Shown: piece after piece, positions 16,003-62,719 of the stretch
Position numbering within the stretch: position 1 is the first letter of the stretch
How the letters are laid out: every line of letters starts with the position of its first letter
Assembly (NCBI GenBank): GCA_030248215.1
Contig: JASANG010000621.1
Coordinates: forward strand, 310,001-374,000
Direction of reading: 5' to 3'
Length of the DNA stretch: 64,000 nt
Origin: Enoplolaimus lenunculus
Lineage: Eukaryota
Notes under the pieces: generated by a model
The model's input: the letters and a program-made list of their open reading frames with translations, nothing else
What the model was told of the DNA's origin: nothing
The model's database searches: none
Position numbers and translations under genes: made by a program

Positions 16003-18863
16003 CCTACTACAACATCTAATTCAATTAATCATTTAAATCAAAACAGCGAAAATTTATCTGGGGGTAAACAGAACGATCCCTCTTCACTAGCTCATGCCTC
16101 TGGCCCTGTGACTAAATCCGCTTCAAACAATAGTATTGTATAGCACAGAAAAACTCGTGAAGATATGTGCTATATAACAATACTGATCGCACAGTGACGT
16201 TCAACCGCAGAACGTAATCTGGTGTGTACGTCAGTTATTCTGGAGTATGAATGTACACGTAAACACCAAAAAAAATATCAAGTTCTCGGTATTTTTATCC
16301 AATTCGGTGACAGTGAATCTCTGAACGCATTAAAAATGTGTTAATTTTAAGTTATAAATCTGTTTATTTTAAAATGAAATGCGTAGCTAAACTTTATTAG
16401 TGTAATATATTGGCTATGAATGATCGAAAGGTAATTATCATATGATTCGAAATTTCAACTAGCTCTAATTTTAAACTTCACGTTTAAGTTTAAACGTATG
16501 TGACCGTACAATACAGTCAGCTCTTCATGTTACAAAAGTGAAACAAATTTGAAGCCAGGAGCATGCGAAGGTTTCGCATAATTTACAACCGAGTTCAAAA
16601 CTTTTCCCAACCGGGCTTATATTTTTTCTACAATGGAGTCACCTTCTCCCGTTTGGTGACAGACCTGCCTGAAATGCAGGGCCGTAGCCGGCTCACCTAG
16701 CTAAGGGGGGCTAAAGTAGGAGGGGCATACAAGGGTTTTGAATGATGTGCCAGCACAGTTGAAAATTTTTTAGAGGGGGCCAATACTTTTCCAAGGGGGT
16801 TGAGCTCCCTTGGCTACCGGCTCGTTAAAATGCATTCAATATCTTCTGCTAGACGCCAGCTGAAAACAAATATGTTGGGCTGCTATAATAGATAATCTAT
16901 TTACCGTGGATGCTGAAATCAGCATGTTTGCATCCGTAGCAAAACCTTAAGGCCAGCGTTTGATTTCTAAAATTGGTAACGTTTTACTTTTAACGTCTTA
17001 ACTTTTCGTTAACGATTGCTCTATTGCTAATCCTTAGAACAAAACACACTCCTAAAAATGCAACATGCCACAAAATTTGTAACATATCAATCAACTGTAT
17101 TGTGATTTTAAATGTTTTGTATAATTGAACCGTTGTGCAACACATGTGCAATAAAACTGGACATTTTTATAGGCGAATGCGGATCAGACGCTAAATACAT
17201 GCAATTAGCCATACGCCATCGTAGGAACCCCAGCAGTGGTAAATGCTCAAAACTAACCATGATTAATAATCAAACAAATCGCCCATGTATAGAACAGGAC
17301 CGGATCGTTTTCTGGAGGGGCTATTAATAGTCAGGTTAAGCTTTAGACTAATTTTTTTGCTTAGGCTTAGGCTTAGGCTTAGGAATTTGCATCGAATACG
17401 CACCGTCATATACTAAATTTATTACCTTTGCAAGAAACAAAATCTAAAATATAAACATATGCCAAGTCGCATCGTGAGATTACATACTGGGCGTTATTTT
17501 AAATTCTAACCGCTCTTGGTTTAGTAAAACGCGAAATCTAACCGAGTATGATGCTAATCAGTAAAAGGCTAGCTTGCAAATCTGGCACTCTGTGAAGGGC
17601 ACATTTTCGACTTTCCCATGACACAGAACCCATGAGCTCATAACATTTGAAATCAAACCCGCACGCTGAGCGATTTCTTATACACCATAACAGTCCAAAG
17701 GTACTTTATCAGTGATTGTAGCTGTCTGAATAATAAACAGCTTAGTGGTGGGTTGGGGCGACAACCCCACCCTGCTTCGTGTTCTTTCAAAATGCGGAAG
17801 GTTCAAGGAAGCCGCAGCCCCCCCTGAACGAGAAAATTGCGAAATTGATTCAAAGTTTGATTGTTGCAGAAAAAGTTTTTTCGGTCTAGTGATGCGGGCA
17901 ATTGTGTATCCAAAGGTTGGCGGGTGGGCGTACGTCCCCCGTCAGAATATTTTTTGCGATAAAATGGTAACGTCCGTACAATTTTCCCACTCAGAAATTT
18001 CTTGTTATAAAATGACAAGGCCTCGACCTTGCAATTTTCCTCCCTCTGAAAATTATTGTACAAAAATTAGGTCCGTACCTTACAATTTTATCCCCTGAGA
18101 AAAATTTTGTGAATAACTTGCAGTGGTTTAAAAATCAGACGGAGACTACCCAAATCAACTCAATCTCAGGTGGCCAACGCAAGTATTTATTTGTCAGTAA
18201 CAATCTTTTAAACCGATACCCAGCACTATTGAAGCAGTTGCATAATGAATAATTATTTATAGAACTGTATGTTTTATGCTCATAGCGTTCAGCTTGTGGG
18301 ACAGGGTACTTCACTTAGAGGCAACAATTTGAAACCAGTGCTTGAGAAACGAAAATTGAGGTTTGGAAACTCAACACACGCAAAATCGACTTTCGGATAT
18401 ATCCGAAATAGAAAATTTAATTTCGCATATCCCCATATCCGTATAAATATCCGGCAAGAATTGCCAGGTATCCGTATATGAAAAATATTCGATGTCCATC
18501 ACTACTTGGGACAGCTGCTCTTTCCTGTACTCAAAAGGGTTATCAACCACCTTAGAAACATTTTCGCCTCACAACTTTTAGCCCCGCTTCTCTGAGTTTC
18601 AAAGTATGATAGCGCTAAAAACTATTTTACCCCCTAGCATGCGTAGCTGACTACGGGCCTGCAACCACTGTGCACATAAAATATCATTCTTGAATTGTTA
18701 AAACACAAACTATAACGGTAAAATTACTAAATTTAATACGTATCAAACCTACTTATTGAGCGAATAAAATCACACTTCAGATAAAGCATTTACTAATGAC
18801 TGCACGACAATGTAGAGATTACTGGATCTTCCGGGAGGGCAAGAATACCTTATATATGCTCTT

Positions 18864-33574: not shown

Positions 33575-35811
33575 TGCGTCGTCCACAATTATTCGCGTAC
33601 GCGTTGTGGAATTTTGCGTCGACTGTAGACGACTGCCATCTACTATATTTACAACGGACGGCAGTTAGTTGTACTATATTTTTCAATTTTTGAAATTTTT
33701 AAAATTTCAATAGACGATTGCTATTTTTCGCCTACCTACCGTCTACGCCTGCTGTAAATTTGAAAAAAGGCAATCGTTTTTGATGGTACTAACAACATGT
33801 GAGATATCGTCTAAAGCGTAGTTTTAAACTTATAGTAGCCGTCAACAGGTGCGCTAGCTTAAGGTACTGCAGTTGTCGATGAGAGTTTTAAACAAAACAG
33901 CTTAGACACTTGCCCTTAGCAAATTAAATATAGCAGCTGTCAATGAGAATTTATGCAAATACGGCGACCGTCTACGGCTTTTAAGGTTCGCAAACTTGAA
34001 ATTTTCTAAAAATGTATTGTTTTTTCGCAGATCCAGAAAAAGGGGCCTGTGCAATTTCTGAAAAAGGGGGGAATTGCACTAGAAAACACTGGCGAGCAAA
34101 GAGAGCGAGAAACTGAATGCCGGCGGGCGAGTACAAACTTTGTTTGCCTAGACCAGTATGGCAGACGCGTTGTACGGATCCTCTATTGTTGTGTGCTTTT
34201 TCTTTCATATTTTCTTTTGCGCACTATCAAGTCTGCCCATTTGCTTTTTAATAGGGGCGTCCAGGTTTTTGGTGGGTAAGAGTGGGTATAGATTCAAGAT
34301 TTACATTTTTTGCTAGGCTAAAGGCTTAGGCTTATAGGAACACTTTTTTCAACGCTTAGGCTTAGGTTCCGTTTTGTTCATTTTTTAGTATCTTGATTAC
34401 GTGTTTGTCCGGCCTGCCGTATCTCTGCTGAATGTGTATTTGCAACTATACCTACACTGAAGCATATTGTTTTTTGCTTGTATTTTCCTGTTACTTTGGA
34501 ATTCTTGTAGTTGAAAATATGTTTAAAAATAGTTGTATTGCTTTTTTAAAAGTAAACGCCTATCAAACTTCTTAATATATACACCTCACGGAGAGCAAGC
34601 ACGAAAAGGGAACGCGCACGCGGAGTTCAAATGGGAAAGCAGAAAAGAGGGGTATGAAATAGTCCAGGCCAAGGGGATACAGTTTGCCCATGTATAGAAC
34701 AAGGCCGGAACTCCACAAATTGAAAATTTTGGCAATACACGCTCGGACAATTTTTTATAGATTTAAAAACTTTAGAATATACGCCAATTTTTCTTTTTAA
34801 ATGAAAAATTTTCAAAATGGAAAATACCGGAAAATTCCGGTGAAAAAATATCGGATTTTTCTACCGGCTACCGGAACCGGAATTCCGGTTGCACCCTGAC
34901 TCAACTATAGTCAGAAATTTTTTGCCGCTTCCCCCCCGCAAGGTAGGCTGTCCTGCGCCAACACACTGCAACTTTTATTTTTTTACAAATACACATAACA
35001 AACATGCAATAGAGCACAGCACGTATTGGAAGAACATGGGAATGCAAATCCTGTCCAATGTACTTTTAGGGGCGTAACAGCAAATTAAGCGTATTCCTAA
35101 GCCTAAGCCTAAGCCTAAGCGTTGCAAAAATGTGTTTATTAAGCCTAAGCCTAAGCCTAAGCAAAAAATGTAATCTAGAATCTAAACCTGTTCTTTTATA
35201 GACCACCAGGAACTTGGACGCCCCTTATTGTCCCCATAAATTTTTTTAGAACCGAAATGACTACAAACTACGCTGGCTATTTTAGGCCAACAATTCTTTT
35301 TTTAAAATATACCTCCGAAGTTTTGTACGACACAGAAATTCGACCACGCATGGCCTGTTTCATATTCGTATTGCACGTTTAAAAAATTTGAATCTAGAAA
35401 AGTTTGGTACAACATTGCGTAGACAGCTACCGTATCAAAATTTTCGGGCTGTCGTCTACGCTGCTCAGTTTGAACATATAGCAACTGTAGTCGCGTGTTC
35501 AAATTATAGGGGCAGCCGTCTACAGCTTTGAAACGAAAAATAGTAGCCGTCAACGATGGGCTATTTCTAACTTCAGTAGTTGTCAGCATTTACTATATAA
35601 AAGAAACCCATAGACAGTTGCTGTTTAAAAATTTAACCAAATTTTAAAAATGAAAAATTATTTTTGAAAAATTGAAAAGCACTGAAGGTTGCTATAAAAT
35701 TTTCGCAAAGGCAGCTGTTGTAGCTTTACTAATCACGAACCCGTTAAGGGCAGTCGTCTACGGTCGACGCAAAATTCCACAACGCGTACGCGAATAATTG
35801 TGGACGACGCA
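33575..35811. mobile_element. 2.2-kb non-autonomous TIR element with TAA TSD (PIF/Harbinger-like)
   Basis: ~65-bp near-perfect TIRs beginning TGCGTCGTCCACAATTATTCGCGTACGCG; TAA at 33572-74 and 35812-14; contains nested MITEs. Confidence 0.8.
35069..35224 (-). mobile_element. Tourist-like MITE with internal (GCCTAA)n telomere-type arrays
   Basis: TIR GGGGCGT/ACGCCCC, TTA on both sides, two GCCTAA arrays inside. Confidence 0.8.
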
Positions 35812-45623: not shown

Positions 45624-46829
45624 CAGGGATGGGAGTCTCGGTCTCGGTCTCGGAAAGTCTCGGGATTTAGCAGGTTTCGGTCTCGGTCTCGGTCTCGGTT
45701 TTTTGAGTCTCGGTTGTTTGGAACCGAGACCGAAAGTCAAGAATTCAGCAAATGCTGGTGAACCTATACAAAGTTGAAGTTAATCACAATTATATACAGC
45801 GACTTGAGAACAGAATGACGCCTCAACGATTGTCAAAAATCCTTTTTTGAAAGAAAATCCAAAACAGTTTGTCTCGGTTGTTTCACGACATAAATAATAG
45901 TTTTTTATTGTTATGCACAGTGTTCTAACACAATAGGAACAATATTAGCCGGAACAGCAACAGGCAAAGCATTTGAACTTTTCGTCGGAAGAAGGAACGT
46001 GAACCGGCATTTATGAAAATTCACCACCGAAGTACTGCAGGTAAAATTTAGCCACAAACGAATTCTAGTGGAACCCTGGTGCATACTTGAATTTCAGTAT
46101 GGCTGTATTGATGAACAAGTGATGTCTGCTGAATACAGGGTGCAACCGGAATTGCGGTTCCGGCATTTTTTCACCTTCCGGTTCCGGTAAATTTTTACCG
46201 GATTTAAAAATTCCTGTGTTATAATTTGGCCGTTTTCGTAACTTTGCTAATTTTTAAGAATCACTTTTGAAAGCCACTAGTACTTCTACTGTTTTTGCAT
46301 TGCTTGTTCATGCAGTGGTTATTGTTGTGGACAAAAGTATTTTTCTGGAAATGTATATATAAATCTTGACAATCATCGAATATAAGCCATTGCTGGTGGA
46401 TTTCACTTCAGTCGATGATGAAAATCTAAAATACAACAAATAAAATAAATACCTATGTTAGACTAAGGTTATTAAAATGAAATTTTTGGTGAAAGTCATT
46501 TTTCACTTCCCGGTTCCGCTTTGGGTAAAATTTTCAAATTCCGGTTCCGGTAAATTGTAATTCCGGTTGCACCCTGGCTGAATAACATTTCGCTGTGAAT
46601 CTGTGAATTCTCATTGTTACGCAATATTTACGAGTAGATCGATATTAATAAAATCACAAAAAACTTTGAAAACTGCAAAAAACCTTCAAAAAGAAACTAA
46701 TTTACTTTAAAAATTCAAATTTTTTCGGTAATGATCAAAAATTGACCGAGACCAAGACTTTTCTTGACCGGTCTCGGTTGTCGGGTCTGGGTCTCCGTCT
46801 CGGTTTTGTACCGAGACCGCCCATCCCTG
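45624..46829. mobile_element. hAT-like non-autonomous element
   Basis: TIRs CAGGGATGGG.GTCTCGGT / ACCGAGACCGCCCATCCCTG; 8-bp TSD TGGGCCAC/TGGGTCAC; subterminal GGTCTC repeats. Confidence 0.85.
46136..46576 (-). mobile_element. hAT-like MITE (CAGGGTGCAACCGG family) nested in the 45624-46829 element
   Basis: Perfect TIRs; perfect TSD GCTGAATA; reverse-complement homolog of 24844-25234. Confidence 0.9.
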
Positions 46830-47695
46830 TGGGTCACATCCGCACCCTTATCACCGATTAAAATGGAACTACAAATGCGTGCCAGCAAACGTTTCCTCGA
46901 AAACGCAACGACAATGCAACGATTCTTGCAATTACATTTTCCAGCAATAAACCTCGGGAATCACAGACGTTCATTTGACTACATTATTTTGGACTACGAC
47001 GAAGCAAAAAACATTAGCTTACCACAACGACATACGTTTACGTGCGATGGAAAAAGAACTTAAAGACGATAGAGGTGTGCAAACTCGTAGCACGTGGGTC
47101 GCAAAAATGGCGCTCATTATACTATTTTATAACGCCTTGCCGTTTATATGTACATAAAAATTATATTTTATAACCCTTTACGCTGTTCATTGACGTGCAT
47201 AGCATATATTTTGCATAATATCTCAAAAACTATTGACGCTTTGGCAATAAAAGTCATTAACTTCCATTGTATTGTTATGGTATGTATTACTAGTTCAGGA
47301 CGTCGTTGTGTTCGTTATTCTGTGCGTTGTTCCGTTTCGTTCGCGTGCGCCGTTCGTTACAATGTCAGTATAACCAACCGTAGCGTCTGTTATATAACTT
47401 GGTTTCGTTTGTTTACACTATGTTGCGTTATTGAACATTTATGTACGTTCTGTGTTATATTCGCTTGACGCCGGGTTCACATAAACCAAATCCGCGAAGC
47501 ACAAAGACATTTATCAATATCCACAATCATTTTCGATGCATAATTTTGCTTGTTTTTAGGTCATCCAGCCTTTGCGTGTCAGTCTTTGCATGTCAAAAGA
47601 CAACATGAGCTGAGACAGAAGGATGTCGGATGGAGCCCCAGTGTGCTTTCTCTGTCATTGTCACATTGGTGCTCACCATCAGCAACCCTGCTTAC

Positions 47696-48080
47696 CAGGG
47701 TGCAACCGGAATTAGAATTTACCGGAACCGGAATTTGAAAATTTTACCGGAACCGGAAACGGAACCGGAAAGTGAAAAATGCATTTCACCAAAAATTTCA
47801 TTTTATTCTTATTTTTTGCTCTATTATTTGTGAAATAACCTTAGTCGAACATAGGTATTTATTTTATTTGTTGTATTTTAGATTTTCGTCGTCGACTGAA
47901 GTGAAATCCACCATCATTGACTTATATTTGGAGTACAAGTGGCTTTCAAAAGAGATTCTTAAAAATTAGCAAAGTTAAGAAAACGGCCAAATTATAACAC
48001 CGGAATTTTTAAATCCGGTAAAAATTTACCGGAACCGGAAGGTGAAAAAATGCCGGAACCGGAATTCCGGTTGCACCCTG
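47696..48080 (+). mobile_element. hAT-like MITE (CAGGGTGCAACCGG family)
   Basis: Perfect TIRs; perfect TSD CTGCTTAC; nearly identical to 24844-25234. Confidence 0.9.
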
Positions 48081-49502
48081 CTGCTTACCTTATTCCTGGT
48101 CAAAGTCAACCATGTCATTTGTGTGCATTATTATATATTTCGTATTGTCTTAAGGTACTAAACCCGTTTTCCTACTAAATTTCATAAGCTCGTTACATTG
48201 CGCTATTCCATTTCCGCCAATTCACTCTATTTTCTAAAGTTTGTGCCAATATGTTCATGCAATGTTTTCTACTCAATTAACCGCTGGTCTTTAACTTTGG
48301 GCAAACTTCGGAGCGAAGTCGCGAAGACCGTGTAGTTTCAACAGCTGCTATCTAGTTAAGTAATTACTGTAATATTACCATTAAATATAACGAATATAGC
48401 GAGAGTAAGGCTGCATTAATTCTGTTTGCCAGACTGATGTTGCTTGGTGCCAAAATCATGTGTTAAGTAATTGAGCTGACGTTGTGCGTTTTTTTGGGTT
48501 TTCGAACCTTAATTTTCGTTTCTAAAGCACTTGTTTAACTTGTTGCTCCAAGGGAAGTGTGTACCCTGAATCGTAAACTGATTGCTTTGAGCGTAAAACA
48601 TACAATGCTAAAAATAGATATTTATAATGCAACTGCTTCAATAGTGCTCGGTTTTCGGTTTTTAAGATTAGTACTAGTGATGGTCATGGGATATTTTTTC
48701 ATATCCGGATATCCGGCAAGTCGTGCCGGATATTTATCCGAATATCCTGCAACAGAGATTCTATAGAATGTCACCCTTCCCTCGACCTACGTATACATGA
48801 GCTGTTTTTTCGTATTCCAAGAAGAAAGACCCACATTATAAAATATACTTACGCTAAAACGTACAAACATCAGTCCATCTTTTTAGTGGTGTCCTGCTTT
48901 TACTGGCAGATCCAGAAATTTCTGACGGGGAGCAGGCTCGTAAATGTTTTAATACGTAATTTTTCACCAAAATTTTTTGAGGGGGTAAAATTGTACGGTA
49001 TGCCTAATCATTTTTTACAAAACAACTTTCCGAGGGAGGACAGTTGCAATGTACAGACCTTGTCATATTATCACAAAAAAATTTGAAGAAGGAAAATTAT
49101 AGGGACGTTATCATAACTTCAAAATTTATGAACTCATGGCTTCTGTGTCATGATAAACTCAAATGTGCCGAATACAGATTGCCAGGTTTTCAAGCCAGCC
49201 TGTTACTATTAGCATCATACTCAAGGCTTGGCGTCTTAAATCCAAAGCGGACGCAATTGACGTATGTATGAGTAGATTTTGTTTCTTGCAATTAGATAAA
49301 TAAGTTTAGTGCTTGACGGTGCATATTCGATGCAAGTTTTTCACTGGGCTAATTTTTAAATAATTTAAAAATACGAAGTCATTTTTCAAGACAGCTCGTG
49401 TGGTGAGATGTAGCACTTTAGATGATCCGAGGTCTATCGCCTTTTAGAAAAATATGGTAAAATTTTTCACTGAAGTATATATAAATATTTTGGCCCATGT
49501 TA

Positions 49503-51240
49503 TGCGTCATCCATTTTAATGTGTGCTCGCCGTGTGGAAAATTGACGCAACCATTTCCAAGTACGGTTTTGAAAAACGCTTCAAAAAGGAAATGGAATTT
49601 CAAAACTGTTTCAATTTCCCACAGCTATCGATTTTTCAAACTCAAGTAGTTAATTGATAGCATTATTTGATCTTCAATTTACCATTAGCGCTTTTTTAAA
49701 CAAGGGCAATGGGAAATTGCGCCATTTTCCAAATTCAATTTCCGCTTTGCCTTGACACTTCAATTACCAAAGTGGAAATTGAAAGAGAAGCATAACGTTT
49801 AGCAATTAAATGATATTGTCCCTCTTATCGAAAATTGAATTTACAGTTTACAATTTCAATTGTGATATTGTCCCCTAAAAGGATGAAATTTTACAACTCA
49901 AAGTTCAAATAGAAGGTTAGGATGAGAGTTTCTAGAAATGATGTTTGATGGGCCACCCAAGTCGCAAGGTTGAAGTTGTGCGATTGAAATTTTGAATATC
50001 TTGACGTTAGTGGTCATTCGACGCTTGGGGTCAAGTTTCTTGTGCTACCAGTTTTACTGAGGTTGGGTTTAAAATTGGAACAGCAATTTTTTTGCGCACA
50101 TTGGAGTTACTTTTTATGGAGTACGACGGTATATTGATTCAAGGATTGGTGATTACAATTGGTATCCCCCGCAAACTGAAACCGCATATAGTCACGTTGA
50201 ACTTACTATGTCCGAACGTGTCTACGATCTAATTAAGAATATAGACGAAACGAGCGAAGATTTATTAGTGTTAATAGTTTTGCATAATTTAGCAAAAATT
50301 ATCTGTTTAGTTCGTTTTGATTGACTTCTGTCACTTTTCAAAAAATCAACATAAAACCAAACAACTTAACAACATATTGCAGATATTGGCTAAAATTAAC
50401 TAATTAGCCATCATTTTTACTACATAATTTCGCCCCACCTGCGGCTCCGGCTCCGGTATTTTTCACCTCCGGTTGCACCCTGCTACGTAAATGTATACCA
50501 GACAGACTTCACAGGCGTTTACAGAACTAAGAACCATGATAGAGAATTGGGCTCAATTACTTCAGACATCACGCCCCCTAAACGTCAGTCACTTTTTCCT
50601 ATACTTAGTGCTTCTTAGGCTAAGATTTAGACTTAGGGCTACGGTTACCGCCCCTGGATTGTTTTTTCCGGAAAAAAATTATGACCGGAAAAAATGGAAA
50701 AATGGAAAAAACTCATTCCTTGTCTGAGTGATCGGTTATCCCACCCAAATCTTTCTTTCACTTCCGACGTCGAAAACGCCTGCCGTCATAGTTGAAAGCG
50801 AATTATTGCACCGATTAGTTCAAAGGTCATGTACCTACAGCAGTGTTTCCGCTTTTATGATTTTTTCAATTTCCCACTGCCCTGCTGATTTTCAACTACC
50901 GTGAGGGAAATTGAAAATGAAATTTGGGTGCCCATTTCCCACTGCAGTTTTGGTGACTTTTCAATTTCCTTTTTGACAGCAAATTTAGCTTATCAATTTC
51001 CTATTTAAGTTTTAAAAATGTCTCAATTTCCTACTGCTGTCCTATTTAAATTCCCCATTGGGAAATCGACACTCAAAATATCATTTCAATTTACTAGTAC
51101 GGTTTGTAAATTGTCTCAATTTCCCACTAGACCAATTTTTTCAAATTAAATTTCCTTCTTGAAACGTTTTTCAAAACCGTACTTGGAAATGGTTGCGTCA
51201 ATTTTCCACACGGCGGGCACACGATAAAATGGATGACGCA
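49503..51240. mobile_element. 1.7-kb non-autonomous TIR element with TTA TSD (PIF/Harbinger-like)
   Basis: ~75-bp TIRs beginning TGCGTCATCCATTTTA; TTA at 49500-02 and 51241-43; many subterminal CAATTTCC motifs. Confidence 0.85.
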
Positions 51241-51249
51241 TTACTTTAA

Positions 51250-52439: not shown

Positions 52440-54170
52440 TTTATTAAAAGGATAAACCACATTTACATCAACGAAAGCAATTATATAAACCAAAGAAGGC
52501 AACAACATATTATCATAACATAACAAAGGTCCTTGAAAATTACCCATTATTCTACTCTGCTTGCAAGGATATTATTCAGAGCAAATATGTTAAAAAGCAC
52601 ACAAGAAACCTAGTTTCAAAACAAACTACAAATCAGGTACGCTGAGAAAAAGACATTCGAAAACCCAGCATGCTATCATTCTGTCGGGTTATTGTTCCAA
52701 AAACCTTAAAAAAACATTCTGCTTTTAGATACAGCTTAAGTTTGCACAAATTTCTATAAACATTTTCCTGAAAAACATCAACAACACAGACATTTTCATT
52801 GTTAAACTCGAGTTTACATCGAGCACTCCATATTGCCAATTGTGCATGTTGGACGATGAAATTAAAAGCTATTCTCTTTAATGGGTCGTGAATATTTCGT
52901 CCCAAAATTAAATCCGAAATCGTTATTTCATTTACTCCAGCTACCTGTTGCAAAACGGGAGTAATGAAAAAACTAATTTCTTGCGCCCGCAAACAATAAA
53001 TAAACACATGAACATTATCCTCCCGCACTTCAATTCCATCCAAATAACAAAACGAACATATATTTGTCCCATCTGTAAAATGACTAGTGCGGTGATTAGT
53101 ATACAATGACTTGTGTCTTAACCTAAAATGGACGTCTAGCGCAGAGCCGTCAACATATTTCGCTTTTGCCCATATCCATGATCCCTCGACAAAAATAGGT
53201 TCAACTCCTTGCTCGTCTCGCCAAAAAACATGTTTAGGATGCATGAGTCCCTTATACACAGCGTGTATCCACATTTTATGCAATTTATTTGCCGACACTG
53301 TTTTTAAGGATAACTTTTCGCCAAAAAACCAACAAAAATTTCCATCCATTTTAAAAGATGACTCAATCATTGCAATCCGTATCTCTTTATATACTCCGGT
53401 ACATCAATGCGTCTCAGTTGACGTTTAGTCGAAAACTGAACTTGCCGAAAGAAATGTTCGAAACATCTCTTCCAACTCACAACTTCGGTACCTCTTAATA
53501 TTCGAATATAAAACATTAAACGATTCACTTTCAGTCTGACAAAAATATTTGGGAAATTTATCCCGCCGTGACTAGGTTGTAAAAACAGGATATCCCTTCT
53601 AATAATACTAGCGGTGGACGGGTACCACAACCACTTATAAACCACATTGATAGTTTCCTTCACTAGTTGCTCAGGGGGTGTTACTAATTTTATCAAATAA
53701 TTAAACATACACAAAAAATAAATGTGAACAAGATGGATTTTTCCAAAAACACAGAGATACCTCGGGGCGGTATTCGCTGTTCAAGACTTGCAATTGCTTC
53801 ATAGCACTTTATCCAATTTTCAGGAACATCGAGTCCCTTTGAATCAAACCAAAGGCCATAAATTTTCACTCTTTCAACAATAAAGCGTGCATATTGATGG
53901 GGTACAAGTGCGTTCCTTAGATCGCCCATTAATAGTATCTGTGTTTTAGTTTCCTTTAGTCGGCTGCCAGAGGCCTTTTGAAATTTTTCAAAAACATCAA
54001 AAACCACACTTATATCTGAAATCCTACTTAGAAAAATATTAGTGTCGTCGGCAAACTTAGTCACTCGGGTGTTAATGCCGTATAGTGGTATCCCCGAAAT
54101 TCTTGAAGTTATTCGAAGATAATGAGCTACCACTTCCGCTGTTATGACATATAATGACGGCGATAAGGGA
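52440..54170 (-). mobile_element. 5'-truncated, frameshifted Tx1/L1-clade non-LTR retrotransposon (RT C-half plus zinc finger)
   Basis: PLSPSLY, KFADDT, SGSRL..KT, VKIYG, GGINFPN and C-terminal CSFC..EDNVHVFIYC are spread over ORFs 53693-54184, 53367-53714 and 52633-53370. AATAAA at 52445-52440. Confidence 0.9.
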
Positions 54171-54899
54171 AGTATTTGTTTCATTTGCTGTATTAGTTTC
54201 TAAAAGTCTGTACTGTGCTTCCTCTTTTTCAGCAAGTTTGATTGCATCCTCCAGTGACTTAGGTTCCTTAGATAAAACAAATTTTTTCATTCTACGGTCA
54301 CGAAGGCCTTCAATAAAAAAGTCGCAAGCGAATGCATCTCGTGTATGTTCATCTATATTAGGCCATGCGCCACGTGCGAGTACTTTAATAGCTTGCCCAT
54401 AGTCACCTACGCCTTCTGTAACTAATTGTTTGCGACGAACTAGTTCATTTCTTTTAAATTTTTCTCCCTCTGGTGCTTGCAGTAACTCTACAAGTTTAGC
54501 CGTTAATGCTGAGTAACTGCGCTTAGTGGCATCAGGTAGTCCACGATAACATTCAAGTGCAGTGCCTCTTAAATACGCTGGTAGTACTTTGGTTTTCCGA
54601 GCTTCATTCCAGTTATTGGCGTTGGCTACAAGTTCAAAAAGTTCGAACCACTGTTTAAAATCTTCCCCAATTTTTCCATGATATAGTGCAAGGTCGGTTT
54701 GGTATGTTACAGATGTGCTAGAAGTGGTGTCTAAATCAGTAATTTGTTCTTGTAGTACTGCAACACTTTTATTTGTTTCCGTTTGATTGCGTAAAAGGTG
54801 TGAAATTTCTTGATTTTGTCTTTCCAGGGCTCGCAAAATGCTATCTGTGCGCTCCTTCCCCGTGAAAGATGTAGAGGGTGCAGGGTCCTCCTTAGACAT
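54171..54899 (-). CDS. gag: Ty3/gypsy-type Gag, N-terminal/capsid half (truncated)
   Basis: Capsid motifs YHGKIGEDFKQWFELFE..ANNW, LPAYLRGTALECY, RKQLVTEGVGDY, FIEGL and PKSLEDAIKLA; lies downstream of the LTR and PBS. Confidence 0.9.
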
Positions 54900-55280
54900 T
54901 GAGTCCGGTTTAGACCAGGGCGCTTAGAATTATTCGAAAATATGGGATGTACCAGCGGGTACGGAATGGTAAAGCAAGAATTGGGAGCGAGATGCGCTCC
55001 GGAGATGAACGAGGTACGTTCGAAGGCTTCTGGGGGCGCCCAGAAGAGCTTCTGGAACTAAACGGACTTGGTTATGAAGGACGTGCTAAGGTGTGATGTT
55101 GCCTACTTAAAGTATCCCGTTTTATTTATTGTGAGTTAGTTAGTATGGTTAAATTAAGCCTAATTAATTTAGTACGTGTGCTTAATTTTACAGTGTAAAT
55201 TTGTCGGTTGGGTTGTTTTGCTAATGTGTCTGTTACGGGGAAGCGGTATTCCTATCTACTGATTGCACCGGGTTTGAATT

Positions 55281-55303
55281 TTCGATCCCCAGTACGACCT
55301 CCA
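55281..55303 (-). promoter_or_regulatory. tRNA primer-binding site
   Basis: TGGAGGTCGTACTGGGGATCGAA, 4 nt after the LTR end. Its complement reads as T-loop TTCGATC, T-stem CCCAG, acceptor strand TACGACC, discriminator T and CCA. Confidence 0.85.
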
Positions 55304-55307
55304 AAAA

Positions 55308-55772
55308 TGTAACGCCGCTTATGAATTCTATCTACTTACCACAAGGGATCCAATTCGTGGCATGCGCTATCAATAAACCCACGAAACTGGCCGATAATTG
55401 TAAACGTCCAGAGCGAAAAGATAATACGAAAAACTCGGTTTTCCAAGCGATAAATACGGCGCACACAGCCCGTTGGTAAGAAAATGTAAACTGCCAATTG
55501 CACTGAAGTAAACAGCAAAATTCCAACTAGTTCTGTTCTCTAACCGCGCTCTCCGTTTATATATCAGCTAATTGTTTAGCCTTAACATTCAGAATTTTAC
55601 AACATTTTTTTAACTACCCTTTTCAAATCTTCCAACTTTGCGCATTTCATAAAATCAACATTTCAAATTATTTTCTCTTTTTCTCCATTTACAGCTCGTG
55701 AACAATGCCTATTCATCACTGGTTTTAAATATAAAAATTTAAGCAAAGTATGAATAATCACCAAAAGTTACA
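55308..55772 (-). mobile_element. 5' LTR (465 bp)
   Basis: TGTAAC...GTTACA terminal inverted repeats, TATATAAA at 55563-55556, followed by the PBS and gag. No second LTR found in the window. Confidence 0.85.
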
Positions 55773-56186
55773 CTGCGCCACACTGCAATTAAAGCAGCCT
55801 TGAAGGGTTTAATTGAAACTCAACAGGCTATGATACACCAACTTACAAATAAAACGGACCGACGTGTTTCATTTGTAGAAGACGGTGCAGTAGCCGCTAT
55901 CGAACCAGAAGATAAATATAAAAATTTAAGTCTTGAAATAGAACGATTGCATAGAAGATTAGATGGGTTCTTTCGGGTACAAAATAATCGTAGACCAGAT
56001 TCGAGAAGATTTAGTTCACCGGGTTACCTTGGACGCTCCACCACTTCGGGCAACATACGCTGTGAACACTGTAATGGTGCACACCACAGCTATACTTGTA
56101 CTCGAAAACCATACACTTCTAGTTACCGGTCAGCAACGCCAGACAGACCCAGTAGAAGTCCGGGACGAACATTTAGAGGACAATAA
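55773..56186 (+). CDS. gag: Gag C-terminal half (coiled coil, CCHC zinc knuckle, R/S/P-rich nucleocapsid region)
   Basis: Frame is open from the LTR edge; CEHCNGAHHSYTC = CX2CX3HX4C; basic RS-rich flanks; no start codon of its own. Confidence 0.75.
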   Translation: MRHTAIKAALKGLIETQQAMIHQLTNKTDRRVSFVEDGAVAAIEPEDKYKNLSLEIERLHRRLDGFFRVQNNRRPDSRRFSSPGYLGRSTTSGNIRCEHCNGAHHSYTCTRKPYTSSYRSATPDRPSRSPGRTFRGQ

Positions 56187-58334
56187 CCATACTATACTAG
56201 TCGGAATGAGCAGCGAGGACCTACCCTAAGCACACCTAGACGTGCTAGTCCATCTCCAGCACGCGGAGCTCAGCATAGCAGCAATAACCGAGATCGAAAC
56301 TATGTTAACAGTATTGATACTACAAACTTGGAGAATTTACAGGCAGAGAATGACGCTTTGAGGGATCACTTGCAACGGTTAAGTGAAGCTGGACCGACAT
56401 CCTTTTTAGCAAATGTGATACCACACACTAAACCTCAACAAAAAATTATTAATTCATACCAACCAACCACAAAATTTAGGTTTATACTCATCATTGCTTT
56501 TGTACTTATATACTACTGTTTTTATTGCGGTCACTGCGGTACATATAACTTTTGTCAAGGTAACAAAGGGGGTCACGCTATAGCAATCCCACAAACACTC
56601 ACCTGTGTTAATCCTCATGTGGCAAAAGTACAGGATATAGATATTAGACTTTTTACACCTCGAACCGAACCCGTAATAAGGACCACATGGAAATGTTCTA
56701 TTATACAAAGAACTATTTGCACTAACACTGGGTTCTTCGGTTCAAAAGGAATCGTTTCAGATAACACTTATGAAAAACCAGCTGATATTATCACTTGCAA
56801 AATAGCACGCACTAACAAGGTCTATAGAAATACAACGCTCATTCAGACAACTCCAACTACCTGGTCTACCTTGCAAACTTTAAATGTGAAATACAAATGG
56901 TGCTGCTATAGTTTCTGCCAGTCAATTGAGAATTTTCTCCTAGAGGTTGGCCAAGCCGCGACATTTAATGGTGTGGTTCTAGTTAGTAGTCTAGGGGATC
57001 TTAGCGCCTGCACAACCTCCAATGACTATTGTCAAACACGTACAGCAACCTACGTCTGGATCAAACATTTTCCACCAGGACCTTTATGTCACTTACAAGA
57101 GCATGGTACATACACCGGAAAAATTAGTAACCAGCACATCATTGTCGATGAGGTTCAAGGAGCATTTACACTTACTAATATTACCACTATAAATTGCCGA
57201 TGCACAAAGGGTATTCTACATGAGACATTTGAAGGGGTTAGTATCGAATTTCTTTCCGTTAATAGTTTACAACTGAAATCTCTGCAAACCCAATACTCGA
57301 TGCAAACAGATGACAATATTGCATCAAACACCAGTGAACATACTAACGCCATCGATCCTGTCAATACTAAATTAAATTATTTACAATACCAAATTAATAG
57401 AATGCAAATTGAAAGTTTTGCACGGGTATGGCAAGAGTTATGTGCTAATAGGAAACGACAACTACATATGATAAAACAATTAATAACACTAGATGCCACA
57501 TTGGGAGCCAGAGTTTTACTTCAGCGGGACAGCATACATGCAGTTATAGCTGGTGAAGCACTTCTCGTATGGGACTGTATACCAATCGAAGTTACATATT
57601 TTTATTGGGACCACAATTTAAATGGAACCTGTTATGAGTATATACCTGTTGAAACAAAACTCAAAACACTTTTTGTTTTGCCAGGTACTAAAGATCTAGT
57701 GGCTGAATCAAAAATTATACCTTGCAATACACCACTGCATACTTATTACCAACTTCAAAATCGTTGGCATTCTATAGGACAGGAAATTCATGTATCCGAC
57801 GTACCACTGAATCTAATCTGGACCTCAAAATTTAAATTCTTTTCTTTTAATGCCAGCTCAATTGCTCTGAGACATACTTCAAACTACCTACCTTATATGT
57901 ACCAACTCTTAAATGAAAGACAACGGTACCGCGACACACAAACGCAATTAGACAGACTTGTTAATTACACAGCAGGAATGTCTTACGATCCATCAGTCGT
58001 CTATAATGTGATTAAAGGAACCGGAGACGGTATAGCTACGGTGGTTAAAAGTTATGGTAATACAGTTGGCAAAATATTTCATAGTGTTACTACCGACACT
58101 ATAAGTTTAGTCAATGGCTTGCTGCGGGGACCCATACAAATTATTATCAATCTCATAGTTATTATAGGCCTTATGTTAGCAGTTATTGGGTTCCTATATG
58201 TAGGCTATAAAAGAAGACTGTTTCAAAAATGCAAACCGCGGAAAACCATATTTAAAAACCGAACTATAACAAGGTTTTGGCCCGTGTCTAAAAGAATTCA
58301 CCACCAGAAGTGCCGGAATTACCAGATGTACTAA
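56187..58334 (+). CDS. env: Env: class III viral fusion glycoprotein (herpesvirus gB/chuvirus G-like), in frame with gag
   Basis: Internal signal-like FRFILIIAFVLIYYCFY and a Cys-rich ectodomain. VWQELC..LDATLGARVLLQRDSIHAVIAGEALLVWDC resembles the gB central helix region. Also CYEYIPV, a Gly-rich amphipathic membrane-proximal segment, TM IIINLIVIIGLMLAVIGFLYVGY with basic stop-transfer KRR, and several N-X-S/T sequons. Confidence 0.85.
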   Translation, partial: PYYTSRNEQRGPTLSTPRRASPSPARGAQHSSNNRDRNYVNSIDTTNLENLQAENDALRDHLQRLSEAGPTSFLANVIPHTKPQQKIINSYQPTTKFRFILIIAFVLIYYCFYCGHCGTYNFCQGNKGGHAIAIPQTLTCVNPHVAKVQDIDIRLFTPRTEPVIRTTWKCSIIQRTICTNTGFFGSKGIVSDNTYEKPADIITCKIARTNKVYRNTTLIQTTPTTWSTLQTLNVKYKWCCYSFCQSIENFLLEVGQAATFNGVVLVSSLGDLSACTTSNDYCQTRTATYVWIKHFPPGPLCHLQEHGTYTGKISNQHIIVDEVQGAFTLTNITTINCRCTKGILHETFEGVSIEFLSVNSLQLKSLQTQYSMQTDDNIASNTSEHTNAIDPVNTKLNYLQYQINRMQIESFARVWQELCANRKRQLHMIKQLITLDATLGARVLLQRDSIHAVIAGEALLVWDCIPIEVTYFYWDHNLNGTCYEYIPVETKLKTLFVLPGTKDLVAESKIIPCNTPLHTYYQLQNRWHSIGQEIHVSDVPLNLIWTSKFKFFSFNASSIALRHTSNYLPYMYQLLNERQRYRDTQTQLDRLVNYTAGMSYDPSVVYNVIKGTGDGIATVVKSYGNTVGKIFHSVTTDTISLVNGLLRGPIQIIINLIVIIGLMLAVIGFLYVGYKRRLFQKCKPRKTIFKNRTITRFWPVSKRIHHQKCRNYQMY

Positions 58335-58915
58335 AACCGAATGAACAAATTTTGAATACAGAAACAACAAGAAAACCTTCTTGGGCTATTATTGAGATTT
58401 CCGAAAAAGATACACCAATTTGGCCACCAAAATCAATTTGTGGTACAAAAACGGGTAATTTTCTTATTCCAGCTGAAGTGGCTGAGAGAAAAATGACTAT
58501 TATTTTCCGTTCTCCGAATATTTCTGACGCCACTCTCATAGCAAAAATGCTGCTGTTTTCCAATTCAAACACAATAGCCATTCATCGCAAAACTTTTAAG
58601 CATCCAACTTTAAGTTAACAAGTGAATCACTAACATTAGCTGAGCGCTTGTTACACGATAATGCAAGGTTAAAAACTTAAAGTAGGCTTTAAAGTTTCGA
58701 ACTCAACTTTATTTGGTCGTGGAGTATTTATGCGCTACAATTTGAAATAATTGACATTTATTTACTCTAATTAAGGTTTAGGGACTCTATTCGCTTACGG
58801 ACTCTTATTAGGGATACGGACTCCTATTGATTTGGACTCAAAATGGGAAGTCCCGCTAATTAACTACAGTAAGTATTCAGGCGGCGCAGATGCTTAACTT
58901 GTTTAAGAAACGTAC

Positions 58916-59023
58916 TTTTAAAATATTGAATCCGTTGCGTTCAATTTCGGCGCATATTTCGTCGGAAAATTCGTACGCATCCGGTTTAATAATTGCCAGT
59001 GTTTTCTCTGAATGATTTATCAT
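58916..59023 (-). CDS. First coding exon of a group II nucleoside diphosphate kinase (NME5-like); downstream exons not found
   Basis: MINHSEKTLAIIKPDAYEFSDEICAEIERNGFNILK followed by donor GTACGT; EKTLAIIKPD is the NDK N-terminal motif. Confidence 0.75.
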
Positions 59024-61314
59024 ACTTTTTTGTAGTTTTAAAGCAAATTTCAAATTTGACGCTAAATAAAAATGCAAAACACGGATCATTTTAAACTTAT
59101 AGGGAACATCCTTTTGAACGAGGAAACTGAACTATGAAATGTGAAACAATTTCTCGACTATTCGTTTTGCGTCTGTGATAGTTTACAATTTCAAATTGCG
59201 ATACAGTTGCATTGGCGGCATAAATTAAATATTTGAAGCTGTGATTGCTTGGGTTTAAAATATTTCTTAAAAATGTTAATTTTCAAAATTTCAACATTTC
59301 ATGCCGAAATTTCTTAAATTTATAAAATATATTCATTTCGATGTTTTATATATACATATATATGTATATAAGTATATATCAAGTGCAAATAAATTCAAAC
59401 TTTGTCACAACTAAATCATTACGCCATTTCAGGGTCAAAAACCCTCTGCGTGTCTCTACTGCTTACGATGCTGCTTCACTATCGATATTCCAACCGCAGT
59501 CGCCGAAATTTCTCATTCATAGGACGAATTAAAAAACTTAGAAGAAATTAAAAAAATAGGCTTAGATTGAAGGCGAAAACTGAAAATTAAAGTTCTGAAC
59601 ATAAACGAGTTGATTTTCAATCAATATGGTTGAAATGTTTTAGAAAACATAATGCGACATATGGGTTTACGTTTCTCTTTTTTCATTTTAATATTAAAGG
59701 TCAAAGAACGCGTAAACAAGAACTCGGTTTGAAATAAGATAATAAACCGAACAAATTTTATATACGAATGCAGTTACAGAAAACGGTTGCTAAGTAACGA
59801 CAACAATAATCTTGGTGTAGAATAAATATAAAAACGCAGGGTACGCAAGTGTACTCAACATAGGTTGGCTATAAAATATTTTGAAGACATTGAGCAAACT
59901 ATAGGCCGCAAGAGACTAGAAGCATCGATTTGTCACTTAGAACATATGCTATTGCAAGTACTGTAGGGACCCGAATAAGCGAGAAGGGGGTAATAAGATG
60001 GGGTCGCCATTTTGGGTAGTCCGTAACAGATAGAATCCCTAAACCCTATTTAGAGTCGATAAATGTCAATCATTCCTAACTGTAGCGCATGACTGACTCC
60101 AGGACCAAACAATTTGAGTTTGAAACTTGAAAGCGTACTTAAGTTTTGAAAATAGATTCCTTAGTATAACCTTGCATTAGCGCTCAAGCTGTTGACACAA
60201 GACAAATAAAAGTTTAATTCAACGGATAGTTGCAGTACCGGTTATTATGTCGCTAACAAAGAATGACGGAGCGTGGGATAAAAATAAACAACAGTCTGTA
60301 ACCGAATAACAGGGAGGTACCCTTTGGAGAGGCCAAATAAATCTCCTATCAATGTTTTTAACCACCAGGTTGCTAAATGTTAACAAACTTTCACGCTCGC
60401 CACATTCGCTGGCCTACTGCTTTACTTAATATCACATAACTCAATCGAACTGAAATATGCAAGAATGGTAATAAAACAGTTTTGGGGTGAGGTGTTCCGT
60501 GTGCTGTCTAAGCTTTTTCCTGAGCTGTTCCGCTGCTAAAGTAGAACACGTCAATGAATTTCGCTTCAAAGATGAGTTCACTCTCTAGATCCACCGTTGT
60601 GCAACTTTGGTGTGAAACTTTTTCGGAAAGGTATCCTCACAGCTATGAAACACGAGGGTGACCTCGCAAAATTTCAGATCAATCGTCGAGAAGTTCTGGA
60701 TCCACCTCTACGTTATGGAGGCCCATCCTGGAGTTTGGAGGGAGATCCCATCCCTGTCTGCTCCGGCTCTGCATATATTGCAATTCCGCAATATTTTCAG
60801 GACACTGGACCTTTAGTAGTTGAAGTATTTAAAACCTATGAACGACTTTATTAGCCGAGACGTTGAAAGCATTTGAGGTAAGGTCTAAACCCACGGTTCC
60901 TACCTAAACTGGCTGGCTTGGAGGCTACGCCATGAGCGCAATGGTAAATTACCGCGCTATGAAAACGGTGTACAGTCGAAAATAGGATAGACAGTCAAGG
61001 GACGACCTTGTTGAATATTGAACCAATGCAAAAAGTACTGATGGTTTCTGGCACGCTTCGCTCGCGATGTTTTTTGCGACATATTGCGGTGTAGACCCGT
61101 GCAAAAATATACTGGATCAGCAACCGGCAATGAATAATTCAGTGCAAACTGCAAATTGTGTACGCGAATTCTACTCGAATTTTTTATGTCATTTGAGAGC
61201 TTTGTTTGCCTGGTATGGCTAGTCTTGTGTAGCTCAGCGGCGGCTGTGGCTACACCATATATAGGTGGAAATTAGACTGTTTTAAACAAGTCGCTGCCCC
61301 CAATATTGTTCCTA

Positions 61315-61686
61315 CGCTGCAAAAAATGGTGAGTCTATTTGACTCTCTCCGATATAGGCTCTACACATGCGACGCTGTGAGTTGAACTTGACTCAATTTG
61401 TGTAGTCCCGTAAGCCCAATGCGGAAAAAAGAGTCAATTTGACACACCATTTTTGGCCCATGTATAGAATATGGCCGGAACGTTTTCCGGCGGGACTGTA
61501 ATAGTATAAGTTTAAACGTTAGACTAATTGATTGCTTAAATTTAGGCTTAGGCTTAGGTTTAGGCTTAGGAATCTGCTCATTCTTACGTTTAGGCTTTAG
61601 GCTTTAGGTTTAGGCGTTAGGCTTAGGAGTATGCTTATACTACTGTCCAGGCCTTGTTCTATACATTGGCCCCATTTTTGGCAGTG
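61315..61686. mobile_element. Tc1/mariner-type MITE with a nested TTAGGC-containing insert
   Basis: TA-CGCTGCAAAAAATGGTGAGTC ... CCATTTTTGGCAGTG-TA; homologous to 14463-14669; TTAGGC arrays at ~61541-61628. Confidence 0.65.
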
Positions 61687-62719
61687 TACGTTCCTGAAAC
61701 TTTACATTTAAGTTGCAATCCATCGTAAACAAGATTTACATCTGTATTTTTACTTCCGGGTTGCACAGAACTGGTATCCGGCAACAACTTTTATTACAAC
61801 GCGTATAATTAACCATAGGCTAAATGTGTATCTGCGAAGAATAAGTACCGGATATAAAAAATTATAATTTATTTGCTAGAATAGCTTAGCGACTATTCAG
61901 ATGCGATAAAGTATTATTTTACCCAAATGCTATGATTTGTACCTATTAACCTGTTTGTTAGTTTCAATTTCCGGTTCTAGTAATGGTTACTTATCCGCGA
62001 TTCGTCTGTGTAATATTTTGAACGAAATGTTACTAGGCAATTTTGGTGTTGTTTTGAATAACATTTAAATCCAATCGATTTTCAAAGTATATGTCTTGCA
62101 AACAACCCTTTCTGCATGGCGAGGATTTGTTTGAAATTTTGGCCAATGTATACAACAGAGCCAGAGCAGTAGCATATTCCTAAGCCTAAACCTAAACCTA
62201 AGCCAAATCCTAAACAAGCGTGAGAATGAGCTTATGCCTAAGACTAAGCATAATACTAAGCAAAAAAATAATGTAAAGCTTAAGTTTACTCTATTGCAGG
62301 CCCCCAGAAAAACGTTTCGCCTGTAATTTTTACATGAGACGAAATTTTTACTTTAAAAATCAATTTTATACTTTGATCAACATTCGCTGACCACAAAGGC
62401 CAGCAAAACGTACGCCTTCAATGCATACGGTGGAGTTATTTAAGCTTTACAATGTTTCAATTTTGGTATGAATCTATGGTCTTGAATTTTCCAGTAAATT
62501 TTTATTTTAACTTAAATTAGCTCATAGTTTTAGACTTCCAATAGAGATCGCGAAGAATGATTCGCTAAGTTATCTCAACTGTAGAAGTGTGTAGCAGAAC
62601 CGGTTAAGTGTCCTCAGCATAGGGCTAGCACGTCACACTCGGTCGGTCTAAACTGGTGCAATTGGCCAGTGGCAGATTCGCCTTGTTCGTTGGGTCTGAC
62701 TTGGGACGGCAGTGTTTAT

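What the first reader, a model, noticed from the sequence alone, without database searches (positions are those of the whole stretch)
54171..58510. Endogenous LTR virus with Gag fused in frame to a gB-like class III fusogen (Gag-Env polyprotein, no pol between them)
Seen: the gag C-half ORF (55800) and the glycoprotein ORF (56328) share a frame (offset 528 nt). The linker PYYTSRNEQRGPTLSTPRRASPSPARG...TNLENL is open, so 55773-58334 is one 854-codon frame with a single internal TAA. No protease, RT or integrase lies between the zinc knuckle and the env signal-like segment. Known: env-bearing gypsy and BEL elements normally order gag-pol-env, and gB-like envs occur in some invertebrate LTR elements. 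Inference: a polyprotein of about 1,100 aa or more with cytosolic Gag, an internal signal sequence, a lumenal fusogen and a TM anchor. That capsid-signal-envelope topology resembles flavi/alphavirus structural polyproteins but sits on a gypsy-type LTR/PBS backbone.
Basis: partly seen in the sequence, partly recalled or inferred. Interest (0 to 1): 0.92.

Follow-up and report, generated by a model that had tools for sequence, protein, structure and literature searches.

The report
Broken gag-env-pol retroelement, herpes-like envelope
This is a damaged copy of an animal jumping gene whose capsid gene runs in one reading frame into an envelope gene predicted to fold like the herpesvirus fusion protein gB; the copying enzymes likely followed the envelope, a gene order already published for roundworms, flatworms and moss animals, so it is a new member of a known kind.

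Summary
55773-58334 is one frame with a single stop. The ectodomain folds like herpesvirus gB (pLDDT 85; Foldseek E 2e-20; VIA Z 11.6 to prefusion gB). Gag and env are fused in relatives too: 34 of 152 homologues carry both in one ORF, none with pol between. But the element is not a pol-less capsid-envelope polyprotein. 15 of the 152 read Gag-Env-Pol in one ORF, among them a C. brenneri protein whose env matches a published GAG-ENV-POL errantivirus (eLife 2026). This copy is broken four times: the 5' half (LTR, primer site, gag N-half) is inverted, there is a stop, a frameshift near 58293, and a truncation near 58494, where relatives place the protease. Sibling contigs lack the first three breaks and run on past the fourth. 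Likely mechanism: one polyprotein crosses the ER membrane twice, leaving Gag and Pol cytosolic and the fusogen lumenal. Pol itself was not seen for this family, and the nearest relative's ORF ends before the protease. Verdict: new member of a known kind.

The parts
55308..55772 (-). 5' LTR, 465 bp, TG...CA ends with short inverted termini, one TATA-like box; inverted relative to env
   Evidence: no second copy in the window
55280..55302 (-). tRNA primer-binding site just inside the LTR; last 12 nt differ at 2 positions from the Gln type listed for Caenorhabditis GAG-ENV-POL elements
   Evidence: no tRNA gene in the window to match
54171..54899 (-). gag N-half (coiled coil and capsid), inverted in this copy
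   Evidence: 48% identity to P0001 over 230 aa, E 7e-68; 26% to P0159, E 2e-10; no direct Pfam gag hit
55773..55784 (.). 12 nt between the LTR and gag C-half, likely flank carried with the inversion
   Evidence: siblings have loose ends before 55785
55785..56186 (+). gag C-half with zinc knuckle (56061-56099), ending at a stop not seen in sibling contigs
   Evidence: 40% to P0001, E 4e-18
56187..56465 (+). basic, Ser/Arg-rich Gag tail and linker, open frame, no Met
   Evidence: one sibling contig spans 55862-56450 without pol
56466..56543 (+). first hydrophobic segment, predicted internal signal sequence
   Evidence: Kyte-Doolittle 19-residue peak 2.11; present in 27 of 34 gag+env relatives
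56535..58106 (+). class III (gB-like) fusogen ectodomain
   Evidence: Pfam PF24664 E 8e-21; model pLDDT 84.7; fold searches
58107..58214 (+). second hydrophobic segment, predicted membrane anchor
   Evidence: peak 3.02; matched in relatives
58215..58494 (+). cytosolic tail, frameshifted near 58293 in this copy and cut off near 58494, at the distance where relatives have the protease active site
   Evidence: a protease profile does not score it
52636..54170 (-). neighbour, not part of the element: high-copy non-LTR (LINE) RT fragment abutting the inversion breakpoint
   Evidence: RVT_1 E 3e-7; depth far above the element

Best explanation
This is a broken copy of a multi-copy LTR retroelement in which gag and a gene predicted to encode a gB-like class III fusogen share one reading frame, and pol likely followed env in the same frame. 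Shown: the shared frame, the lack of pol between gag and env, two hydrophobic segments around the ectodomain, the four breaks in this copy, and single natural ORFs reading Gag-Env-Pro-RT-RNaseH-IN in relatives. Predicted: the gB fold. Inferred: the genomic RNA is translated into one polyprotein. Gag is made in the cytosol; the first hydrophobic segment acts as an internal signal that threads Env into the ER, where host signal peptidase would free its N-terminus; the second stops transfer, so protease, RT and integrase return to the cytosol on Env's tail. The element's protease would then release capsid, nucleocapsid and enzymes. Membrane-tethered Gag would assemble beside Env trimers and bud into the secretory pathway, letting particles move between cells. 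This copy itself is dead.
For: Nearest relative P0001 is one open 1186-aa Gag-Env ORF matching all three window pieces in order. Of 152 homologues: 19 GAG-ENV, 15 GAG-ENV-POL, 13 ENV-POL, 7 POL-ENV, 98 env only; 0 of 34 gag+env proteins have pol between. Pfam confirms gag<env<RT<RNaseH<IN in P0003, P0004 and P0159, and gag<env<protease<RT<RNaseH<integrase zinc finger in P0156, the second-nearest capsid. All 7 POL-ENV proteins carry the BEL/Pao marker DUF5641. Sibling contigs join the gag halves across opposite window strands (1 contig each in 2 of 3 runs), read a sense codon at the stop (7 of 7 contigs, 3 of 3 runs), differ by a one-base indel near 58293 (all laid depth in 2 runs, 110 of 145 in the third), and run on past 58494 (2 of 3 runs listed). 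The break lies 99 codons after the anchor; 30 relatives have the protease Asp 68-272 residues after it. Fold.
Against: Pol was not seen for this family: it is absent from the window, no genome is held, and three locus scans found nothing. The window's tail is not scored by a protease profile nor by pairwise comparison. P0001, the closest relative, ends about 87 residues after the anchor without a protease. 7 of 34 gag+env proteins lack a clear hydrophobic segment before the ectodomain. Topology rests on hydropathy only; cleavage, assembly and infectivity are untested. The three runs come from one study and two samples.
Confidence: 0.75

Rival explanations
1. Same gene order, but the Gag-Env ORF ends after the anchor and Pol is reached by frameshift or readthrough, or from a separate ORF, giving less Pol than Gag-Env.
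For: P0001 stops about 87 residues after the anchor with no protease; 19 of 152 homologues are GAG-ENV without RT, though several of these still reach a protease motif or are fragments. The window's own env frame closes at 58334.
Against: The window's closure follows an indel near 58293 that sibling contigs do not share, and the neighbouring frame is open to the truncation. 15 homologues are continuous to RT.
Confidence: 0.15
2. Env is made mainly from a spliced mRNA; the shared frame with gag is incidental and the fused protein is minor.
For: One acceptor-like pyrimidine-AG site lies in the linker at about 56400. Spliced or internally promoted env RNAs occur in Tor elements (PMC4402516 Results).
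Against: The frame is kept open in 34 diverged relatives; env has no AUG of its own here; the knuckle-to-signal spacing of 128 residues fits relatives' 114-268 (10 proteins).
Confidence: 0.05
3. One reading: a pol-less element encoding only a capsid-signal-envelope structural polyprotein, like a flavivirus or alphavirus structural region, mobilised in trans.
For: No pol in the window; P0001 has none in its ORF.
Against: The copy is truncated where the protease should start and siblings continue beyond it; 28 of 152 homologues have pol after env.
Confidence: 0.04
4. An ordinary gag-pol-env element that lost pol by an in-frame internal deletion in this copy.
For: The copy is heavily rearranged.
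Against: A diverged sibling contig spans 55862-56450 with no pol; 0 of 34 relatives have pol between gag and env.
Confidence: 0.01

Closest known systems
GAG-ENV-POL Ty3/gypsy errantiviruses with HSV/gB-type ENV (Chary and Hayashi, eLife 2026, PMC13524379), in Nematoda, Bryozoa and Platyhelminthes
   Same: Gene order, gB-type env, ectodomain between two hydrophobic segments, LTR plus primer site. Their Cbre_errantivirus_2 env domain reads the same as P0159, a 2593-aa single ORF homologous to both window gag and env. The adjacent-cysteine WCC/YCC motif of the window env occurs in their supplement only in 7 Bryozoa C2b rows.
   Different: Window env is only about 22-26% identical to P0159 and groups, weakly, with unnamed proteins rather than the named nematode ones. 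The passages read state the order but not the in-frame fusion. This copy lacks pol and the 3' LTR.
Nematode endogenous retroviruses, NERVs (Sacco et al. 2022, J Gen Virol; paper not held, title seen in a reference list, content recalled)
   Same: Recalled: one continuous gag-env-pro-pol ORF and a nyamivirus-like glycoprotein. The top viral fold hits here include Nyavirus midwayense G, E 3e-23.
   Different: Recalled as limited to chromadorean nematodes; the host here was not identified and monophyly with them was not shown.
BEL/Pao elements with gB-like or phlebovirus-like env in one Gag-Pol-Env polyprotein (e.g. Atlas, 2,828 aa, passage in 10.64898/2026.03.22.711591)
   Same: Env made as part of one polyprotein with an internal signal; 7 BEL/Pao proteins carry an env homologous to the window's.
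   Different: Env is last, after integrase; different Gag and marker domains. Atlas env is class II.
Flavivirus and alphavirus structural polyproteins (recalled)
   Same: Works like them in predicted topology: capsid, internal signal, lumenal glycoprotein, anchor, then cytosolic enzymes (flaviviruses).
   Different: Their fusogens are class II and they have no LTR, primer site or RT; this is analogy, not kinship.

Membership tests
GAG-ENV-POL Ty3/gypsy errantivirus with gB-type env | LTR with TG...CA ends followed by a tRNA primer-binding site | tested here: met
   465-bp LTR and adjacent primer site, 2 mismatches to the listed Gln type
GAG-ENV-POL Ty3/gypsy errantivirus with gB-type env | Paired LTRs | tested here: inconclusive
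   Only one LTR in the window; the copy is truncated near 58494
GAG-ENV-POL Ty3/gypsy errantivirus with gB-type env | Gypsy-type Gag with zinc knuckle | tested here: met
   Homologous to gags that hit Retrotrans_gag; no direct Pfam hit; knuckle spacing is non-canonical
GAG-ENV-POL Ty3/gypsy errantivirus with gB-type env | Env with class III gB fold | tested here: met
   All 38 Foldseek PDB rows shown are herpesvirus gB; VIA top 5 are gB, Z 9.2-11.8, prefusion HSV-1 gB Z 11.6, rmsd 5.3, 370 aligned
GAG-ENV-POL Ty3/gypsy errantivirus with gB-type env | env directly after gag, no pol between | tested here: met
GAG-ENV-POL Ty3/gypsy errantivirus with gB-type env | pol (protease, RT, RNase H, integrase) after env | tested here: inconclusive
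   Met in relatives; absent in this truncated copy; tail not scored as protease
GAG-ENV-POL Ty3/gypsy errantivirus with gB-type env | Pol classified as Ty3/gypsy by profile or tree | not testable with these tools
   No Pol sequence for this family; no genome held
NERV (Sacco 2022, features recalled) | Monophyly with the chromadorean nematode clade and a nematode host | tested here: inconclusive
   Quick env tree gives the window no strongly supported group; host not identified
BEL/Pao env-bearing elements | Order gag-pro-RT-IN-env with DUF1759, Peptidase_A17, DUF5641 | tested here: not met
   env follows gag directly; none of these domains in window ORFs scanned
Flavivirus/alphavirus structural polyprotein | Class II fusogen, no retroelement signals | tested here: not met
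   Class III fold; LTR and primer site present

The most novel reading that the evidence does not exclude
The window marks an undescribed sub-lineage, outside the named nematode clade and possibly in a host group not yet reported, in which the whole retroelement is one double-spanning membrane polyprotein: Gag tethered by its own C-terminal signal, a gB trimer in the lumen and Pol hung on Env's tail at 1:1:1. That would be a flavivirus-style assembly route for a reverse-transcribing virus, with a gB that would fuse without gH/gL.
Probability: 0.35. Interest if true: 0.55.

Novelty: new member of a known kind. Interest (0 to 1): 0.3.

Why it matters
It adds a family, and a set of unannotated relatives, to a little-studied class of enveloped retroelements. 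The in-frame layout predicts an unusual way to build a particle (ER-tethered Gag, enzymes on the envelope tail, fixed ratios) and a minimal gB-like fusogen. The eLife paper says the entry mechanism of these gB-carrying elements is unknown. The gene order is not new, and this copy is defective.

Tried and rejected
No host genome is held, so sibling loci could not be read whole. Locus scans found no relative in viral contigs or metagenome contigs. Sequence search of solved structures gave nothing significant. A protease profile from 8 relatives did not rank the window tail among 1,269 window segments; pairwise tests were also blank. The Atlas look-up gave no answer. A search with a presumed host exon found no homologue, so the host is unassigned. 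No RNA holder was listed. No tRNA gene or Rfam match. Earlier scan notes were empty. The env tree is the quick version, with most forks open; 64 rows with both ectodomain halves were kept out of 152 homologues plus the window. Sacco et al. 2022 is not held. Searches for 'gag-env-pro-pol', 'gag-env-pol', 'gag-env fusion' and related terms found only the eLife paper as relevant; subscription papers are not covered. I rejected a BEL/Pao assignment and a chance pol deletion for the reasons given above.
Full report
Observation. The frame 55773-58334 (+) has 854 codons and one internal stop at 56184-56186. It carries a zinc knuckle at 56061-56099, a hydrophobic segment at 56466-56543, a cysteine-rich ectodomain and a second hydrophobic segment at 58107-58214. 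At local base composition the chance of at most one stop is about 1e-23 for the frame and 0.002 for the linker alone. There is no Met between 55830 and 57300. Pol of two full-length relatives has no tblastn hit in the window.

Anatomy of this copy. A 465-bp LTR (55308-55772), a primer-binding site (55280-55302) and the gag N-half (54899 to 54171) lie on the minus strand, facing away from the gag C-half and env. Three DNA runs from one study and two samples hold the element. Summed contig depth over it is roughly ten times that of the unique flank, which suggests a multi-copy family but is not a copy number. One contig each in 2 of 3 runs joins 54190 to 55791 across opposite strands, so siblings have an uninverted gag. 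All 7 contigs laid on the stop read a sense codon. A one-base indel near 58293 is seen in all laid depth of two runs and 110 of 145 in the third. Loose ends at 58494 are listed for two runs, and another repeat starts near 58487. One diverged contig spans 55862-56450 without pol. So the copy has four breaks: inversion, stop, frameshift, truncation. The contigs cannot say whether these are real alleles or assembly errors.

The envelope. Pfam Monjiviricetes_fusion matches at E 8e-21. An AlphaFold2 model from 72 sequences has mean pLDDT 84.7. All 38 Foldseek PDB rows shown are herpesvirus gB, best E 2e-20, with TM-scores near 0.5 for prefusion forms and 0.3 for postfusion forms. The independent aligner ranks five gB chains first (Z 9.2-11.8; prefusion HSV-1 gB Z 11.6, rmsd 5.3, 370 aligned), then a rhabdovirus G. 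Among predicted viral proteins, negative-strand RNA virus glycoproteins including a nyamivirus lead. The class III fold is supported as a prediction.

Relatives. P0001 is one open 1186-residue ORF that matches gag N-half (48%), gag C-half (40%) and env (35%) in order. The representative search found 535 proteins at E<=0.001 and listed 150. With earlier hits, 152 were typed by domain: 98 env only, 19 GAG-ENV, 15 GAG-ENV-POL, 13 ENV-POL, 7 POL-ENV. None of the 34 gag+env proteins has pol between, and 27 of 34 have a hydrophobic segment just before the ectodomain. Pfam confirms the full order in P0003, P0004 and P0159 and, without an integrase-core hit, in P0156. All 7 POL-ENV proteins carry the BEL/Pao marker DUF5641. 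In 30 relatives with a detectable motif the protease Asp lies 68-272 residues after the anchor; the window breaks at 99 codons. Against this: the window's tail is not recognised as protease, and P0001 ends before any protease.

How it likely works. Shown: shared frame, two hydrophobic segments, continuous Gag-Env-Pol ORFs in relatives. Inferred from standard membrane-protein topology: Gag stays cytosolic, the first segment is an internal signal, the ectodomain enters the ER, the second segment stops transfer, and Pol returns to the cytosol. Signal peptidase and the element's own protease would cut the chain. No R-x-x-R furin motif was found in the ectodomain. Particles would bud with Gag tethered next to Env. 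None of these steps was tested. I give this reading 0.75, Pol by frameshift or separate ORF 0.15, spliced env 0.05, a pol-less element 0.04 and a chance deletion 0.01.

Comparison with what is known. PMC13524379 (seen: abstract, sections 6, 14 and 18, parts of 5 and 9, passages, rows of supplements 1 and 2; passages of its preprint) reports gB-type Ty3/gypsy elements ordered GAG-ENV-POL in Nematoda, Bryozoa and Platyhelminthes, some with the ectodomain between two membrane segments. Its Cbre_errantivirus_2 has the same env-domain letters and contig length as P0159, a 2593-residue C. brenneri protein homologous to the window's env (E 2e-21) and gag (E 2e-10). The window's primer site differs at 2 of 12 positions from the Gln type of the Caenorhabditis elements. 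The WCC/YCC motif appears in that supplement only in 7 Bryozoa rows. The passages read do not state the in-frame fusion; figure supplements could not be seen. Sacco et al. 2022 is not held; I recall that it describes a continuous gag-env-pro-pol ORF with a nyamivirus-like glycoprotein. PMC4402516 (abstract, first part of Results) shows Tor env from spliced or internal-promoter RNAs. The Atlas preprint (passages) gives a one-ORF Gag-Pol-Env BEL/Pao element.

Novelty. The window's env has no strongly supported group in a quick tree; its nearest rows are unnamed proteins, and the named nematode proteins fall elsewhere. The host was not identified. The element is a new, possibly distinct, member of a published class. 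The flavivirus likeness is a fair description of the predicted topology, not of kinship. Interest 0.3.

Noticed in passing
window 52636-54170 (-): A frameshifted, 5'-truncated non-LTR (LINE) RT fragment ends exactly at the inversion breakpoint; it may have triggered or been caught in the rearrangement.
   Followed up: partly
window 17359-17383, 35096-35160, 61542-61627, 62179-62215: Short TTAGGC-type arrays, one pair in inverted orientation. This is the telomere repeat of many nematodes (recalled), a weak hint at the host.
   Followed up: no
protein P0016: An env homologue preceded in the same ORF by Upf1-like helicase domains (AAA_11, AAA_12); a captured helicase is recalled for NERVs.
   Followed up: no
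proteins P0009, P0010: BEL/Pao proteins whose env is among the closest to the window's (E about 1e-87), apart from the other BEL/Pao envs in the quick tree: possible env exchange between gypsy and BEL/Pao elements.
   Followed up: partly
protein P0008: A Gag-Env-Pol relative with an RRM domain between zinc knuckle and env.
   Followed up: no
window 46136-48080, 49499-51244, 58673-60147: Three pairs of long inverted repeats, likely non-autonomous DNA transposons; 58673-58850 is extremely high-copy.
   Followed up: no
window 58880-59131 (-) and 5143-6018 (+): Probable host exons: a nucleoside diphosphate kinase-like piece and an immunoglobulin-domain piece.
   Followed up: no
window 55913-55930 and 55726-55743: An 18-nt exact match between the LTR and the gag C-half, on the same window strand; unexplained.
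   Followed up: no
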